A DNA stretch of 14,988 nt from positions 1 to 14,988 of IMG/VR virus record IMGVR_UViG_3300029184_000014. One strand, given 5' to 3'. Origin of the DNA: a virus. Taxonomy: Duplodnaviria; Heunggongvirae; Uroviricota; Caudoviricetes. How positions within the stretch are numbered: position 1 is the first letter of the stretch; each line of letters begins with the position of its first letter. Position numbers: made by a program. This document shows, piece by piece, positions 9,001 to 14,988 of the stretch.

Positions 9001-12000
9001 TTTCACATTGCCGAACGGTAAAAGATTTAAACAGTCTCTTGGAACAAAGGACAAAAGGCAGGCGACAGAGCTCCATGACAAGCTAAAGGCTGAAGCATGG
9101 CGGGTCAGCAAACTTGGTGAAATACCTGATATGACGTTTGAGGAAGCGTGTGTCAGGTGGCTCGAAGAGAAAGCACATAAGAAATCACTGGACGATGACA
9201 AAAGCCGGATCGGATTCTGGCTTCAACATTTCGCAGGGATGCAACTAAGAGACATCACTGAATCAAAAATTTATTCAGCGATGCAGAAAATGACAAACCG
9301 GCGTCATGAGGAAAACTGGAAACTCAGGGCAGAAGCATGCAGAAAAAAAGGGAAACCTGTTCCAGAATACACGCCAAAACCAGCGTCCGTTGCAACGAAG
9401 GCTACGCATCTTTCATTTATAAAGGTATAAAGGCCCTGCTAAGAGCCGCAGAGCGTGAATGGAAAATGCTGGATAAGGCACCAATTATTAAAGTGCCTCA
9501 ACCAAAGAATAAACGGATCCGCTGGCTGGAGCCCCATGAAGCACAAAGGCTGATTGATGAATGTCCGGAGCCATTAAAGTCTGTTGTTGAATTTGCACTG
9601 GCAACAGGCTTAAGACGCTCGAACATCATCAACCTTGAATGGCAACAAATAGATATGCAGCGCCGGGTGGCATGGATAAACCCGGAAGAGAGTAAATCAA
9701 ACCGCGCAATTGGCGTTGCGCTGAATGATACTGCATGTCGCGTATTGAAAAAACAAATCGGGAATCATCACCGTTGGGTATTTGTGTACAAGGAAAGCTG
9801 TACCAAACCAGACGGAACGAAAGCGCCAACAGTAAGGAAGATGCGGTATGACGCAAACACAGCCTGGAAAGCGGCGCTGAGACGGGCTGGTATTTATGAT
9901 TTCAGATTTCACGACTTGAGACACACCTGGGCAAGTTGGCTGGTTCAAGCCGGAGTCCCGTTGTCAGTGTTACAGGAAATGGGAGGTTGGGAGTCTATCG
10001 AAATGGTTCGTCGATATGCTCACCTTGCACCTAATCACCTTACCGAACACGCACGGCAAATAGACTCGATCCTGAACCCATCGGTCCCAAATTTGTCCCA
10101 GTCAAAAAATAAGGAAGGTACTAATGATGTGTAACTTATTGATTTAAATGGTGCGATAATAGGAGAAAAACACACATCATAAATGCATGATATTTAACCG
10201 AATTTACCTATTCCATTTTTACAGATACCCCCAAAAGTACCCCCAACAAATTTTCTATACCATGATTTGTGCAAAAAATTGACTCTCCTGTACTCCCCTA
10301 TTTTGTGCCCTATTGCCGATGCTACAACTAATGATATAAGTTATTGAAGCAACCTGAGTCCATTACGATAAAAATGATATAAGAAAAGAGTATAATAGTT
10401 CAACGTATTTACTATGATAAATGAAGTCGATGTGGCAGTGAAGCTCTGGAATATATTAATAATTTTAAGGGTTGTCATTAGATAACCCCAATTAAAATTG
10501 CTTACAACTGGAGTTATCTAACTTTCACTCACTGAATAGTCTCATTATCTTCAGGCTTAGTTATTTCATCTTCTAATTTATCCAACCACGTTATAGCACA
10601 TTGATTCAAATCGATGATCAGATTTTCCACATACACAATTATTGAATTAAATTTCCTAGGGTTAACACTACTTTTAAACTCCCCATGTCCCAAAGAATTT
10701 CTAAGGCCAACAACCTCACCTAGTTGCGATAAATCAAGTGATGAATAATCCAAACCTATAGCATCGAAATTCACCTTGACAACCATTTCATTCACATTGG
10801 AAAATGTCATAACTAATTCAGAAACATCGCAATCTGATAATGTGGATTTATTAAACCTGTCAATGTGTTGAATTACCTCACTTGTTAGTTTAAACGCCCC
10901 CTTCGTAACTTTCTTTTTTATTTGGGCGCCATTATGGACAATGCTTCGGTGTGAGTCAGCATCATAAATATTTTTTATCATATCTACATACTTGCTATAA
11001 AATGGTTCTCGTTGCAACCAAAGTGCTCGAATTTCTGCAGAGTATCTAAATGCCTCTCTATCTGAGAGTTTCAATGTATTTAAGCAAACTGACATTGTTT
11101 CAGTAAAAAAACCCTCCCAAGAAGAATAAATCATTGGGACCGATATTATTCTAAACATATCCTCCTTGTCTTTATCACCTGATCTCGACATAAACTCATT
11201 AATAGACTTTATGCTCTCAAGGAATCCAAGACTTTCATTTTTCGTCTTTTCCAACATCACCTTGAAATCATCGAAATCTGATATTCTCATTTTATCCAAA
11301 CACCTTCTTCCCAAGAGCGATTCTTTTCTCTAATTTGGCTTTAGTATTAGATCCAGAACCAGTACAAGCTCTTAATTCTTTGATCTCACCATCCATTAAA
11401 TAATCAAATCTTTTCGCCACCTCAGCAGGTGTTAAATTATCTACATTACTAAAAATACCAACAGCAACAACATCTAATAAATTAGTACTAAACGGGCCAC
11501 TTGGAGCACCATCCTTTCTAAATTTAAATGCTTTACCAGATAAACCAGCAATATTTATCAAATCAAAAGTTCTTTTTATTTTTAATTCAAAATTAATATC
11601 AATAACATTATGTTCTGCCGCGTAGAACATAAATTCATCCAAAAAGTCAGTTACACTATGGCTAAATTTATCCGCATAAGTCAAAGATGCCATAACTCGT
11701 AGCAAAGCTTCCTCAACACCTTGAGATTTTTGGCCATCTTCATTTATTCCAAGAGCTTGAACAATACCATCAATTTCGGCCATCTTACGTAAGCGATCTG
11801 CAAATTCATTCCCTGCTAATCTAGCCATGCAATTACGTATTTCCTGGTCACTCAAACGAACACCAGACCTATTCAGTCGTTTAAAAACATTATATTTAGT
11901 TTCAGGTTTTGTTTCTTGCTCCAAAATAACAACATTTACTCGCGCATTTTTTATAGTTCGGCTAACTTTGTCCGGCAATCCTTTTGCAGTCCATCCATTT

Positions 12001-14988
12001 AATTCTGTAATTATAGGCACATCATCAAGAACAGTTGGATTACGGACATCATTTACAGAGTTTTGTTTCTTTGCATTATCTATTTCTTCCTTATTAAAAA
12101 TATCCTCTGAAAAAAATCTAATTATAGTACTCACACGTTGCAATCCATCGATAACCTCCTGCTTACCATTATTATCAATGTAGAAAAAAAGTGTTGGCGT
12201 AGGTATATTTAAAAGTAATGACTCGATAAATTGGCTTTGTCTTGCGTTATCCCAACGAAAAAGCCTTTGGTAGTCTGGAGAAATGGTTATCTCATTTTCT
12301 TTATATAGATTAATTACTTCACGCCATGATATGGTATAAGAATCAGTTACTACCTCATCTCTTTTTTCATCTATCTGAGATAGCAATTTAGTTACGTCAT
12401 TCATTTTGTTATCCTTATGATTTTTTCAAAATAAACTTTATCTTTAATATAATTTTTTGACTTGGTATTTATTTGTCCAAATATTGCTTTAACTTGATCT
12501 TCTCTCACACATTTCGCTTCTGAAAACCCAATAGAAAGCGCCATTTCACAATAAATATCATAAAGCGGAATCTCTATTTCCTTATAATATGAATTTTGTA
12601 TTACAAAATAACCAGAGCAACCTACCTTTAAAACTCTAAAGATTTCCATTAATGACTCATACGCATCAGAAAAATATCTAATTTTATTTTTAAGGTAATA
12701 ACTTCCAGATGCTCTTGATGTATGCGATGTTACCGATGACAAAACATCCATACACAATGGCCCCCATTTTTTATTAATTTCATCCGCAACTTTAGGCACA
12801 GTCGTCGTGCCCATCATTTCCTTTCTAAGAGACTTATATCCCTCACTCCCTAAAATTATTTCCAACTCAAGACGAGTAGAAACGGCATAGTCTATTCGTG
12901 TTAAATACGGTGGCGATGTAATAACAAGATCAATTGTGTTACTTTTAATATTTAATTTTTTACTATCCACGTTTAAAATCGAGTAACATGCCCCCCCATT
13001 AGCGCTGCCATAATATTCACTTAACTGCTCACGCATAATTTTAAAATTTTTATTATATTCAAAACAAATATCAAATTTATTATTAAAGTCTACTTTTTTA
13101 GAAATCCATGTAGGATTTGAAGTTGACCTAACATCAAGGACATTGCGAACAGTATAAAATAAAACACTGCAATAAAATGCTTTTAAAGGATTTACGATAT
13201 CATTTTGTCCTTTATCCATAAACTGATCACAGATACATTTATAAAACTTTTGTAACTGTTCAATAAGTGGATAGCCCTTCGATGACTCAGTTATATCTTT
13301 TGTTTTTTTTCTAAAGCAAAGCAGTATCCTTTCCAGGAGTTGCTCTCCGGTATAATCCAGCGCTGAAATATTATCCCTACTTTTGGCTGCAGCAAAATAG
13401 CTCATAACAGGATTAATATCTGCTCCAATACACTTTATGGTTTGCTTTTGACAAACTATACCAGTGGTACCGCTTCCCATCCAAGGATCAAGAACGGTAG
13501 CGGACGACTTAACTCCTTCAGCCTGCAAAACAGAAGCCACAAATGACTCTGAATAGCCCGCATAGTATGGATGCCAAGAGTGAAGCCCCTTGCGTTCGTT
13601 TCTCCCTCTTTTCGCGCCTGCAATCATCTTTAAATCACTTACCCAAAATTTTCAATTGAGGCTCATAATACGGGGATCCGTATAAGCTCAAAATTTGCTC
13701 CTGAAGTTAACTGATTAGGATACTTGAAACACAGAGTCTTTCAATAATGATTAAGCAATCCTGCGTAAGTGCTCTCCTCAACATGCCTGCCTGCTTCACA
13801 TGGTCAATTCTCCTGCATACGTATGGCAAAAAGCCTATCAGAATCGGTAGTTTTCAACATAAACTCCCACCAGCCACAGAACACAATATTACGACATAAA
13901 AAATATCAACCAATTAACGCATCGATAAGCTAGACGGCTAGCGAACTCAATTTTGAACTACCTTTTAAACAACCCTTTATCGCCGCAGCCTGTCCGGTTT
14001 CTTCCACTGATACGGCCTCACATCATCATGCTGGTGGCGTTCCTGTTGCAGCACAACGGAAACAGGCGCTGAACACCTGTTAATTTTGCTTGCTGGTTGT
14101 TTGATTTCGGCAATGCTGCGGAGCATCTCCAGCATATCGGCTTCGGTGATGGTCATGATTTACACCTTAGGAAATCTTAGGGGCTGGTTGACACTTTCCG
14201 GCTTAAGACCTTAATAAATCTTAATACCGCAGGTTGACACACTTGACACTTTTTCGCGAAAAACCTTATCAAACCTTAGCATTTCTAAGCATGGCAACTT
14301 GACACTTTTCGCTATTTTTTCGGTTTTTTGACGTGGTGAATATGGTACAAGGCCAGTAATGGCGAGGCATCCAGCGAGGTTGACACTTTTTCGCGTTCAG
14401 AGTGTAAAGTGTCAACCTGGCAAACTGCTCAACTTGACACTTTTTGAGGTCATTGATGGCCTGATTTTTCCCATTCAGCCAGGGCGTTTAGTCCTGCCTC
14501 ACTCCATGTGTCCTGTTCATCGGGACAATCGCTGGCAACATAGCAGAGTTCGCAACGCAGCATACGAATTGCCAGCCTGGCATTACCTCGCAAATTGTAT
14601 TTTTCAAAGTAATGCTGCCCTTCATCATCCTCAAGACAGATAGCACCATCATCAAGAAAGTGCACTTCCCAGCCTAATTCCCCGGCTGCATACAGCACAC
14701 GCTGCTGTATGCCCTCGTCCGTTACTGGCGCAGGAATTTTACCGTCTCTGGCCTTAACTGCTTTCCAGAACTCGCCCCATGTCATTTCCAGCGTTCTTTC
14801 TGGCCACATTTCAGAAATGGTGTCTTTCCCCTGTGCTGGTGGGCTGTTCCGCTGCTCTGTCGCTTCCACATCAATTTTTTTACCGGACATGACCACTTCG
14901 CCTTTCTCGAGCCAGTCGTAAACTGTCTGGCGGCTTACGCCTTTGTATTTGGCGTATTCGGCTTTACTCATCAACATGTAGCTCACCT

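What the first reader, a model, noticed from the sequence alone, without database searches (positions are those of the whole stretch)
10529..13627. AT-rich three-gene operon: amino-methyltransferase - DUF262 (ParB-like) - HEPN-motif protein, a candidate novel restriction-modification-like defence module
Three minus-strand genes are tightly coupled: the methyltransferase stop and DUF262 start overlap as ATGA at 12401-12404, and only 1 nt separates the DUF262 stop from the HEPN start at 11290. Composition is far more AT-rich than the adjacent lambdoid genes, indicating horizontal acquisition. The first gene has methyltransferase motifs I (DPWMGSGTTG) and IV (SPPY). The second has DUF262 motifs (PDYQRLFRW, IDGLQR); DUF262 is the N-terminal sensor/NTPase domain of GmrSD-type type IV restriction enzymes and related defence proteins. 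The third has an R-x4-H motif (LRNSLGHGE) typical of HEPN nucleases. GmrSD-like enzymes normally carry a fused DUF1524 nuclease and are not paired with a methyltransferase. A split DUF262 plus HEPN pair co-transcribed with a methyltransferase therefore suggests an unusual architecture: methylation as self-protection, DUF262 as sensor, HEPN as effector. A possible operon promoter lies around 13640-13700 on the minus strand (TATTAT-like -10), at low confidence.
Basis: partly seen in the sequence, partly recalled or inferred. Interest (0 to 1): 0.85.

Follow-up and report, generated by a model that had tools for sequence, protein, structure and literature searches.

The report
Methylase-linked DUF262–HEPN phage-defence cassette
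Three tightly packed genes (a DNA methylase, a ParB-like DUF262 DNA sensor and a HEPN RNase) sit at the end of a phage-satellite island in E. coli; this is a real, widely conserved, probable anti-phage cassette, but the gene trio was noted in 2013 and its two-gene core (PD-T4-2) was shown to block phage T4 in 2022, so it is an untested variant of a known kind.

Summary
There are three minus-strand ORFs: MTase 12401-13627, DUF262 11292-12404 and HEPN 10529-11290. They are joined by an ATGA overlap and a 1-nt gap, and GC is 0.30-0.35 against 0.45-0.55 in the flanks. All quoted motifs are present, and Pfam confirms N6_N4 MTase, GmrSD_N/DUF262 and HEPN_RiboL-PSP/MAE_28990.

The architecture is not new. 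Anantharaman et al. [quoted passage not shown] PD-T4-2 (DUF262 + the same HEPN Pfam families) is a validated anti-T4 system.

I examined 19 distinct loci recovered through the HEPN or DUF262 protein, from several phyla.
- The DUF262-HEPN pair is always adjacent, and the two proteins co-evolve.
- A PF01555 amino-methyltransferase is always next to the pair. It has two different architectures and three gene orders.
- 9 of the 19 loci also carry a restriction-enzyme gene or candidate (XhoI family in 5). The window has none.

Best reading: a restriction-modification-like module in which methylation marks self, DUF262 reads DNA, and the HEPN RNase is the effector. The mechanism is inferred, not shown.

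The cassette belongs to a thrW-integrated satellite island, not to the neighbouring lambdoid prophage. Current PADLOC models would not call it a system. Interest is moderate.

The parts
12401..13627 (-). DNA amino-methyltransferase (408 aa). Its motif order is permuted, alpha-like: AdoMet motif I (DPWMGSGTTG, aa 47-56), then a variable TRD-like region (about aa 90-200), then catalytic motif IV (SPPY, aa 238-241).
   Evidence: - Pfam PF01555 at 6.6e-14, in two stretches in reversed order.
- PADLOC MTase_II at 7.9e-28.
- Motifs are invariant in 13 homologues, and the region between them is hypervariable.
- A 36%-identical homologue is paired with an XhoI-family REase in a cyanobacterium.
- In Bacillota, homologues are fused to a 270-aa REase-like domain.
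11292..12404 (-). ParB/DUF262 NTPase-like domain plus a C-terminal helical 'ParBDB' domain (370 aa). It has no nuclease domain. Predicted DNA sensor or switch.
   Evidence: - Pfam PF03235 at 9.8e-27.
- PADLOC NsnA at 1.2e-55 and PD-T4-2_A at 1.1e-41, both over the full length.
- The QRxxxW, DGxQR and FxxxN motifs are invariant.
- Start overlaps the MTase stop (ATGA).
10529..11290 (-). HEPN-family predicted RNase (253 aa) of the MAE_28990/RiboL-PSP type, with an R197-N-x3-H202 active-site motif. Predicted effector.
   Evidence: - Pfam PF18735 at 1.8e-15 and PF18737 at 3.9e-7.
- Rx4H is invariant.
- Starts 1 nt after the DUF262 stop.
- Its tree is congruent with the DUF262 tree.
13628..13796 (-). 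Conserved 5' leader of the cassette; the promoter should lie here. The only consensus-like site is TTGAAA-16-TATCCT at 13744-13717 (9 of 12 matches).
   Evidence: Homology to an 87%-identical cassette in a different context (L007) runs from 13796 to 10340 and stops there. The promoter scan is not above chance.
10478..10521 (-). Stable hairpin beginning 8 nt after the HEPN stop codon. Probable 3' end or terminator of the operon, although it has no U-tract.
   Evidence: Inverted repeat with 16-nt arms. RNA fold gives -22.9 kcal/mol, z = -4.8 against shuffles. It lies inside the block conserved with L007.
10132..10165 (.). Shared thrW-type attachment core. This is the junction between the lambdoid prophage (left) and the satellite island that carries the cassette (right).
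   Evidence: Window 10051-10165 matches the integrase end and tRNA-Thr edge of strain IrN. Window 10132-10450 matches the island end in strain PD23.
14450..14986 (-). Context only: MerR/Nu1-like small-terminase-like gene of the satellite island.
   Evidence: RefSeq name 'MerR family transcriptional regulator'. Matches phrog_57, terminase small subunit, at 2.1e-6.

Best explanation
This is a three-gene anti-phage cassette. It is carried as cargo at the att-proximal end of a thrW-integrated, PICI/P4-like satellite island. It belongs to the 'MAE_28990 HEPN + ParB/DUF262 + DNA methylase' operon family and is a methylase-linked relative of PD-T4-2.

Proposed mechanism (inferred, not shown):
1. The amino-methyltransferase marks the host DNA.
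2. The DUF262-ParBDB protein forms a complex with the HEPN protein and scans DNA.
3. When it meets DNA that lacks the mark (phage or plasmid), its NTP-dependent ParB-type switch releases or activates the HEPN RNase.
4. The RNase cuts tRNA, rRNA or mRNA and stops translation, which aborts or blocks the infection.

In relatives, the same DUF262-HEPN pair is bolted onto complete type II restriction-modification systems, where it would act as a second, RNA-directed arm. In the window the restriction enzyme is absent, so the pair would be the only restriction arm.

What is shown: the gene structure, the domains, intact catalytic motifs, pair co-evolution, and the obligate MTase neighbourhood. What is inferred: the defence phenotype (from PD-T4-2), RNase activity, methylation as the self-mark, and the direction of sensing.
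For: - Domains and motifs.
- Folds.
- Translational coupling.
- The DUF262-HEPN pair is adjacent and co-directional in 19 of 19 loci retrieved through HEPN or DUF262, and the two trees are congruent.
- A PF01555 MTase is present in all 19 loci, with two architectures and orders M-D-H, D-H-M and D-H>/<M. This is more than inheritance of one operon would give.
- In 10 of the 19 loci, from Enterobacteria, Vibrio, Photobacterium, Shewanella, Janthinobacterium, Thiohalomonas and metagenomes, no REase gene accompanies the MTase. Bacillus siamensis (L022), found through the MTase query, is a further such case. In the homologues aligned, the MTase motifs stay intact, which suggests the MTase is selected together with the pair.
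- All 13 E. coli genomes that carry the cassette carry it whole.
- PD-T4-2 (DUF262 + the same HEPN Pfam families) protects against T4 natively and in K-12.
- SspE and DndI give a precedent for DUF262 proteins that read a host DNA modification made by neighbouring genes.
- Li et al. 2025 raise the same idea for Menshen systems next to solitary methylases.
Against: - There are no experimental data for this cassette.
- PD-T4-2 works in K-12 from a 1.8-kb clone without any cognate methylase, so the pair does not inherently need one.
- Characterised DUF262 enzymes (GmrSD, BrxU) attack modified DNA, not unmodified DNA.
- MTase architecture is intermixed on the DUF262/HEPN tree, so there is no sign of sequence-specific co-adaptation between sensor and methylase.
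- Nine of the 19 relatives carry a REase or REase-like gene, so the methylase could primarily serve that enzyme and be a leftover here.
- HEPN RNase activity and its target are assumed from the family.
- The PADLOC PD-T4-2_B model does not match the HEPN protein.
Confidence: 0.45

Rival explanations
1. PrrC-like guard. The DUF262-HEPN pair is held silent by contact with the methyltransferase (or, in relatives, the restriction-modification complex). It fires its RNase when a phage anti-restriction factor attacks that partner. Methylation status of DNA is not what is sensed. This is the general model Anantharaman et al. proposed for HEPN genes in restriction-modification operons.
For: - The model is stated (PMC3710099).
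- The MTase is always a neighbour whether or not a REase is present.
- MTase types are swapped freely relative to the pair, which fits a generic contact or trigger better than sequence-specific reading.
Against: - Two MTase architectures of one Pfam family, with permuted motif order and no detectable full-length similarity, would have to offer the same interaction surface.
- PD-T4-2 works without a partner MTase.
- PrrC is regulated by a type I complex, not a solitary type II MTase.
Confidence: 0.15
2. Independent neighbours. DUF262-HEPN is a self-contained PD-T4-2-type system, possibly sensing hypermodified phage DNA as GmrSD does. The methyltransferase is an orphan, a remnant of a restriction-modification system that lost its REase, or an anti-restriction or epigenetic gene that travels with it.
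For: - PD-T4-2 needs no MTase.
- GmrSD and BrxU sense modified DNA.
- The same MTase family occurs with an XhoI REase and without DUF262-HEPN.
- REase loss leaving orphan MTases is common (general knowledge).
Against: - MTase association is 19 of 19, across phyla and in three gene orders. In 10 of the 19 there is no REase, and motifs are intact in the homologues aligned.
- The MTase and DUF262 genes share an ATGA overlap.
- The block conserved between different contexts contains exactly the three genes.
- E. coli genomes have all three genes or none.
Confidence: 0.2
3. True restriction-modification system. The ParB-like DUF262 protein is itself the DNA-cutting restriction subunit for unmethylated DNA, and the HEPN RNase is a second prong or back-up.
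For: - Anantharaman et al. call the partner a 'ParB nuclease'.
- A PADLOC/REBASE-derived REase_II model (PDLC03418) hits the DUF262 N-terminus at 9e-10.
- Some ParB-fold proteins nick DNA (PDB 5k5d, 'ParB domain protein nuclease', appears).
Against: - In characterised DUF262 enzymes the DUF262 domain is the NTPase/sensor, and cutting is done by DUF1524, which is absent here.
- The four-gene relatives would then carry two DNases for one MTase.
Confidence: 0.1
4. Addiction or toxin-antitoxin module. HEPN is a toxin neutralised by DUF262 (or by methylation), and its main role is to stabilise the satellite island rather than to defend against phage.
For: - The two genes are tightly coupled and co-evolve.
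- The cassette sits on a mobile island.
Against: - This does not explain the obligate MTase.
- The homologous pair PD-T4-2 has a demonstrated defence phenotype.
- Addiction and defence are not mutually exclusive.
Confidence: 0.07

Closest known systems
[quoted passage not shown] 2013, Biol Direct 8:15 (PMC3710099)
   Same: The same three components: HEPN of PF18737/PF18735 type, ParB/DUF262 and a DNA methylase. RefSeq names the window's protein 'MAE_28990/MAE_18760 family HEPN-like nuclease'.
   Different: Only a one-line in-silico entry. It gives no experiment, no mechanism beyond the general 'multi-pronged restriction-modification + HEPN' idea, and no analysis of REase-less versus REase-containing forms.
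PD-T4-2 (Vassallo et al. 2022, E. coli ECOR65)
   Same: A two-gene core of a DUF262 protein followed by a HEPN protein with the same Pfam families. The PADLOC PD-T4-2_A model matches at 1.1e-41 over the full length. HHpred for PD-T4-2B gives PF18735 and PF18737. Validated against T4.
   Different: - PD-T4-2 has no methyltransferase and works in K-12 without one.
- Its HEPN is much shorter: about 165 aa from the HHpred range, and the whole system spans 1540 bp.
- The PD-T4-2_B model does not match the window's 253-aa HEPN.
SspABCD-SspE and DndBCDE-DndI (phosphorothioate-sensing DUF262 restriction components)
   Different: - The modification here would be base methylation, not phosphorothioation.
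- The effector here is a separate HEPN protein rather than a fused DUF1524 HNH nickase.
- Sensing of the mark is not shown here.
Menshen (NsnABC)
   Same: NsnA shares the DUF262 + ParBDB architecture, and its PADLOC model is the best hit (1.2e-55).
   Different: There is no NsnB ABC ATPase and no NsnC (inPIN + nuclease) in the window.
GmrSD/BrxU type IV restriction enzymes
   Different: - There is no DUF1524 nuclease domain.
- Those enzymes attack modified DNA and have no cognate methylase.
PrrC-EcoprrI (HEPN anticodon nuclease embedded in a restriction-modification locus)
   Same: A HEPN RNase genetically tied to a restriction-modification or methylase locus as an RNA-directed arm.
   Different: PrrC's regulator is a fused ABC ATPase plus a type Ic complex. 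Here the regulator is a separate DUF262 protein, and the partner is a type II-like MTase.

Membership tests
MAE_28990 HEPN / ParB / DNA-methylase operon (Anantharaman 2013) | HEPN protein of the MAE_28990/RiboL-PSP family with a conserved Rx4-6H motif | tested here: met
MAE_28990 HEPN / ParB / DNA-methylase operon (Anantharaman 2013) | ParB-fold gene and DNA methylase gene in the same operon | tested here: met
   PF03235 and PF01555 genes lie immediately upstream and are translationally coupled. This arrangement is conserved in 19 of 19 loci.
PD-T4-2 | PD-T4-2_A-type DUF262 protein | tested here: met
   PADLOC PDLC04027 at 1.1e-41, covering residues 28-369 against profile positions 41-361 of 363.
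PD-T4-2 | PD-T4-2_B-type HEPN protein directly downstream | tested here: inconclusive
   The Pfam families are the same as HHpred reported for PD-T4-2B. However, no PADLOC model, including PD-T4-2_B, matches at E<=1, and the protein is about 90 aa longer.
PD-T4-2 | Two-gene system that functions without a cognate methyltransferase | tested here: not met
   A coupled MTase gene is part of the conserved block and is present in every relative of this subfamily that was examined.
PD-T4-2 | Protection against T-even phages | not testable with these tools
   Needs plaque assays.
Menshen (NsnABC) | NsnA (DUF262 + ParBDB) | tested here: met
   PADLOC NsnA at 1.2e-55.
Menshen (NsnABC) | NsnB ABC ATPase and NsnC inPIN-nuclease genes downstream of NsnA | tested here: not met
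   The downstream gene is a HEPN protein with no PADLOC hit. There is no ATPase ORF between 10135 and 14450.
GmrSD / type IV restriction | DUF1524 (His-Me finger) nuclease domain, fused or adjacent | tested here: not met
   Only PF03235 is found. The C-terminal half of the model is purely helical. No DUF1524 gene is nearby.
Type II restriction-modification system | Site-specific DNA methyltransferase | tested here: met
   PF01555 and PADLOC MTase_II. Motifs I and IV are intact. Activity and target sequence were not tested.
Type II restriction-modification system | Cognate restriction endonuclease gene | tested here: not met
   There is no further ORF of 60 aa or more between 10135 and 14450 outside the three genes; the only ones are a 59-aa ORF and two others under 60 aa. 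Relatives do carry XhoI-family or other REase-like genes.
HEPN superfamily RNase | Ribonuclease activity | not testable with these tools
   Inferred from the conserved Rx4H motif and the fold only.

The most novel reading that the evidence does not exclude
The cassette is a restriction-modification-like system whose restriction arm is not a DNase. A ParB/DUF262 NTPase reads the methylation state of DNA and, on meeting unmethylated (foreign) DNA, licenses a HEPN RNase. An epigenetic self-mark would then gate an RNA-targeting or abortive response. The same plug-in pair would serve as a second arm for at least three unrelated families of type II restriction enzyme or candidate.
Probability: 0.35. 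Interest if true: 0.7.

Novelty: new variant of a known kind. Interest (0 to 1): 0.45.

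Why it matters
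If the methylase really is the self-mark for a DUF262 sensor that fires an RNase, this would link epigenetic self/non-self discrimination (restriction-modification logic) to an RNA-level effector (Abi, CRISPR type III or type VI logic). It would also explain why HEPN genes so often sit in restriction-modification loci, a question left open since 2013.

Practical points:
- The cassette is invisible to current PADLOC models. Only an orphan MTase hit and an NsnA/PD-T4-2_A hit would appear, so the cassette is under-counted in defence censuses.
- It rides on a phage satellite in clinical and avian-pathogenic E. coli strains (MS8345, APEC E19019, FDAARGOS_1300-1302).
- The strains and probably their long-read data exist, so the methylation motif and the phenotype are directly testable.

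Tried and rejected
- **Menshen.** Rejected: there is an NsnA-like protein but no NsnB or NsnC.
- **GmrSD or type IV enzyme.** Rejected: no DUF1524.
- **Complete type II restriction-modification system in the window.** Rejected: no REase ORF.
- **Promoter at 13640-13700.** The scan is at chance level. Only the conserved 5' block 13628-13796 can be stated.
- **Sequence search of PDB.** For the three proteins it gave only the MTase AdoMet motif (DpnA-like, E about 3e-4) and nothing for DUF262 or HEPN.
- **NCBIfam.** No family-level hit for any of the three proteins.
- **tblastn of the HEPN protein.** No hit in 50,697 phage genomes and one hit in 72,556 plasmids (Paraburkholderia pPT65, a four-gene form).
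- **Literature searches.** Searches for the RefSeq accessions, for MAE_28990/PF18735/PF18737 and for DUF262+HEPN+methyltransferase found no experimental study of the trio. The library is incomplete, so this is not proof of absence.
- **PD-T4-2 protein sequences.** I could not obtain them (ECOR65 contig QOYX01000002), so the comparison rests on PADLOC models and the authors' HHpred table.
- **L013.** It looked like a case of an intact pair with a broken MTase. It comes from a MAG whose MTase has an in-frame stop and whose fourth gene is frameshifted. I give it no weight because assembly errors cannot be excluded.
- **CTCGAG as the MTase target.** The target cannot be inferred from the XhoI link, because the TRD-like region is hypervariable.

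Full report
**1. Observation**

- methyltransferase, 12401-13627 (408 aa);
- DUF262 protein, 11292-12404 (370 aa);
- HEPN protein, 10529-11290 (253 aa, counted from the ATG that RefSeq also uses).

On the minus strand the MTase stop and the DUF262 start overlap as ATGA. One base separates the DUF262 stop from the HEPN ATG. GC is 0.30-0.35 across the cassette and 0.43-0.55 on either side. Every quoted peptide motif is present.

**2. Domain identities**

- Pfam, all above the gathering scores: PF01555 N6_N4_Mtase at 6.6e-14; PF03235 GmrSD_N/DUF262 at 9.8e-27; PF18735 HEPN_RiboL-PSP at 1.8e-15 together with PF18737 HEPN_MAE_28990 at 3.9e-7.
- The MTase matches PF01555 in two pieces in reversed order. 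Motif I lies at aa 47-56 and SPPY at aa 238-241, with a hypervariable region between them. This is an alpha-like permuted amino-methyltransferase. Whether it makes m6A or m4C, and at what sequence, cannot be told.
- The DUF262 protein keeps all three DUF262 motifs: QRxxxW, DGxQR and FxxxN. The residues are invariant in 20 homologues at 43-100% identity. It is a full-length match to the PADLOC models NsnA (1.2e-55) and PD-T4-2_A (1.1e-41).

**3. Genomic context**

The cassette does not belong to the lambdoid prophage.
- Window 1-10165 is a lambdoid prophage: replication genes, repressor region, gam/bet/exo and integrase. In other strains it sits at tRNA-Thr thrW next to proA.
- From 10132 rightwards the window matches the end of a different element, seen whole in strain PD23. 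Its order is integrase, HTH/antirepressor genes, Icd-like, primase, ProQ/FinO-like, PerC-like, a Nu1/MerR-like small-terminase-like gene, a 59-aa ORF, then the three genes and the att site. It has no capsid genes. This is the layout of a phage satellite (PICI/P4-like); the label is my inference.
- The two elements share about 34 bp of att core (10132-10165) and lie in tandem. None of 5,426 complete E. coli genomes has this exact junction.
- The cassette itself is found in 13 of 5,426 genomes, always whole and at least 99.9% identical.
- Against an 87%-identical copy in another context (L007), homology runs from 13796 to 10340 only. The mobile unit is therefore the three genes plus about 170 nt of leader and about 190 nt of trailer. 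The trailer includes a strong hairpin beginning 8 nt after the HEPN stop (-22.9 kcal/mol, z -4.8).
- The promoter scan is at chance level.

**4. Conservation elsewhere**

I retrieved relatives through the HEPN protein and through the DUF262 protein. This gave 19 distinct loci:
- Enterobacteria, Vibrio, Photobacterium, Shewanella, Thiohalomonas, Janthinobacterium, Ideonella and a Paraburkholderia plasmid;
- MAGs labelled Deltaproteobacteria/Desulfomonilaceae, Acidobacteriota and Rhodocyclaceae;
- unassigned metagenome contigs.

Three results follow.

(a) DUF262 and HEPN are always adjacent and co-directional, and their NJ trees are congruent. DUF262 is much better conserved (43-47% identity across phyla) than HEPN (27-31%).

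(b) A PF01555 methyltransferase is always next to the pair (19 of 19).
- In 10 loci it is the permuted 408-455-aa type seen in the window.
- In 9 loci it is an ordinary beta-class N6_N4 enzyme.
- Gene order varies. It is M-D-H in most loci, and D-H with a convergent M in Thiohalomonas and in L014.
- Searching from the MTase side gave D-H-M in Bacillus siamensis and Peribacillus, and M-D-H in Rhizobium.
- MTase type is intermixed on the DUF262/HEPN tree.

(c) All 9 beta-class loci also carry a fourth gene.
- It is an XhoI-family restriction endonuclease (PF04555) in 5 loci.
- It is a 235-238-aa protein family in 3 loci.
- It is a 290-aa family in 1 locus.
- The 290-aa family also appears next to the Rhizobium permuted MTase. 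In Bacillota it is fused to the C-terminus of the permuted MTase (709-aa proteins). I take that fusion as an indication that it is a restriction domain.
- One cyanobacterium has the permuted MTase with an XhoI REase and no DUF262-HEPN.

So the DUF262-HEPN pair is a plug-in that accompanies amino-methyltransferases. Often the partner is a whole type II restriction-modification system. In about half the cases, including the window, it is a methylase with no restriction enzyme. The window has no further ORF of 60 aa or more between 10135 and 14450.

The HEPN subfamily is small: 160 clusters at E<=1e-3 among 1.84 billion representatives. The DUF262 and MTase families are large: more than 4,300 and more than 2,300 hits respectively.

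**5. What is already known**

- Anantharaman et al. 2013 (PMC3710099) list 'MAE_28990 ... [quoted passage not shown] By analogy with PrrC, they propose that HEPN RNases in restriction-modification loci are a second line of defence.
- Vassallo et al. 2022 (PMC9519451) isolated PD-T4-2 from ECOR65, described as 'DUF262, HEPN'. It has two genes in 1,540 bp. It protects against T4 both natively and in K-12. Their HHpred table gives PF03235 for PD-T4-2A and PF18735/PF18737 for PD-T4-2B.
- Reviews list PD-T4-2, Menshen and Dazbog as DUF262 systems without DUF1524.
- Li et al. 2025 (PMC12065111) define NsnA as DUF262 + ParBDB. For Menshen loci next to solitary methylases, they speculate that DUF262 'may target non-modified genomes'.
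- I found no experimental work on the methylase-linked trio in the held library. No PADLOC model matches its HEPN protein. A PADLOC-style call would therefore miss it.

**6. Mechanism**

*Shown:* three coupled genes with intact catalytic motifs; a co-evolving DUF262-HEPN pair; an obligate methylase neighbour; all-or-none presence in E. coli.

*Inferred:*
- It is a defence system. This rests on PD-T4-2, on its position as satellite cargo, and on neighbours such as XhoI restriction-modification systems, Shedu and an AbiJ-NTD gene.
- The methylase supplies a self-mark.
- DUF262-ParBDB, with its NTP switch, discriminates marked from unmarked DNA, as SspE and DndI do with phosphorothioate.
- It controls the HEPN RNase, which arrests translation.

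The strongest argument for functional coupling of the methylase is that it persists, with its motifs intact in the homologues aligned, next to the pair in many lineages that have no restriction enzyme, and in different gene orders.

The strongest arguments against are these:
- PD-T4-2 needs no methylase.
- Known DUF262 enzymes of the GmrSD type attack modified DNA.
- Methylase types swap freely, which fits a generic relation better than sequence-specific co-adaptation.

I put the methylation-gated RNase model at about 0.45. The rivals are a PrrC-like guard of the methylase or restriction-modification complex (0.15), independent neighbours or an orphan methylase (0.2), DUF262 as the actual DNase (0.1), and an addiction module (0.07).

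**7. Verdict**

Its functional idea is reasonable and is now better supported by comparative genomics.

It is not a novel architecture. It is a member of an operon type catalogued in 2013 and a methylase-linked variant of the validated PD-T4-2 pair.

What is worth following up is the rule found here. The DUF262-HEPN pair never occurs without an amino-methyltransferase in this subfamily, and it is grafted onto at least three different restriction-enzyme or candidate families. That makes the question 'what does a HEPN RNase do in a restriction-modification locus' experimentally tractable in E. coli. Interest is moderate (0.45).

Noticed in passing
window 14183-14449: Six copies of GTTGACACTTT (five on the + strand, one on the - strand; 0.33 expected by chance), many spaced about 55 nt apart. 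They lie between the 59-aa ORF and the small-terminase-like gene of the satellite island. They could be iterons or terminase (cos/pac) binding sites.
   Followed up: partly
window 7002-8066 (+): The lambdoid prophage carries a 354-aa 'DGQHR domain-containing protein' downstream of exo. By my knowledge this is a DndB-like member of the ParB superfamily; that was not tested here. It matches phrog_7901 at 9e-216, function unknown. If so, it is a second ParB-superfamily gene in the same window and a possible prophage defence or counter-defence gene.
   Followed up: partly
window 9337-9430 (about 9418-9425): The lambdoid integrase is split into two ORFs (8963-9430 and 9337-10134). The cause is an 8-bp tandem duplication (TATAAAGG) that is absent from the intact 372-aa gene in strain IrN. 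The integrase is probably a pseudogene, so the prophage may be locked in place.
   Followed up: yes
window 3511-4322 (+): Two low-GC ORFs (132 and 130 aa; GC about 0.35-0.40) lie just downstream of the XRE/cI-like repressor gene of the lambdoid prophage. They match PHROGs of unknown function (phrog_4293, phrog_3556). This is a moron-like position similar to rexAB.
   Followed up: partly
window 10132-10165: The lambdoid prophage and the satellite island share the thrW (tRNA-Thr) att core and lie in tandem. No complete E. coli genome among 5,426 has this junction.
   Followed up: yes
L004 2992-3600 (Photobacterium sp. GJ3): In this relative a phage CI-type repressor gene (PF07022/PF16452) overlaps the start of the cassette's methyltransferase gene by 4 nt. 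This suggests a controller (C-protein-like) regulator of the cassette. No equivalent was found in the window.
   Followed up: no
L025 5001-7130; P0212, P0215, P0218: 709-aa proteins in Bacillota fuse the permuted MTase to a 270-aa domain. That domain occurs as a separate gene next to the cassette in Rhizobium (L023) and in an Acidobacteriaceae MAG (L015), at 50-54% identity. It is probably an uncatalogued restriction-endonuclease family; it has no Pfam hit, and its standalone form (L015) has no PADLOC hit.
   Followed up: partly
L008 (contig labelled Bacteroides sp. UBA7333): A 6.3-kb MAG contig assigned to Bacteroides carries a cassette whose DUF262 and HEPN proteins are 78-81% identical to the E. 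coli ones (MTase 54%). This looks like a mis-binned enterobacterial contig rather than a Bacteroides gene.
   Followed up: no
L011 3576-5939: In a deltaproteobacterial MAG the DUF262 gene of an XhoI-RM + DUF262-HEPN cassette is split by an IS (rve integrase), and a second transposase follows the HEPN gene. This is an example of natural inactivation of the pair while the restriction-modification genes stay intact.
   Followed up: partly
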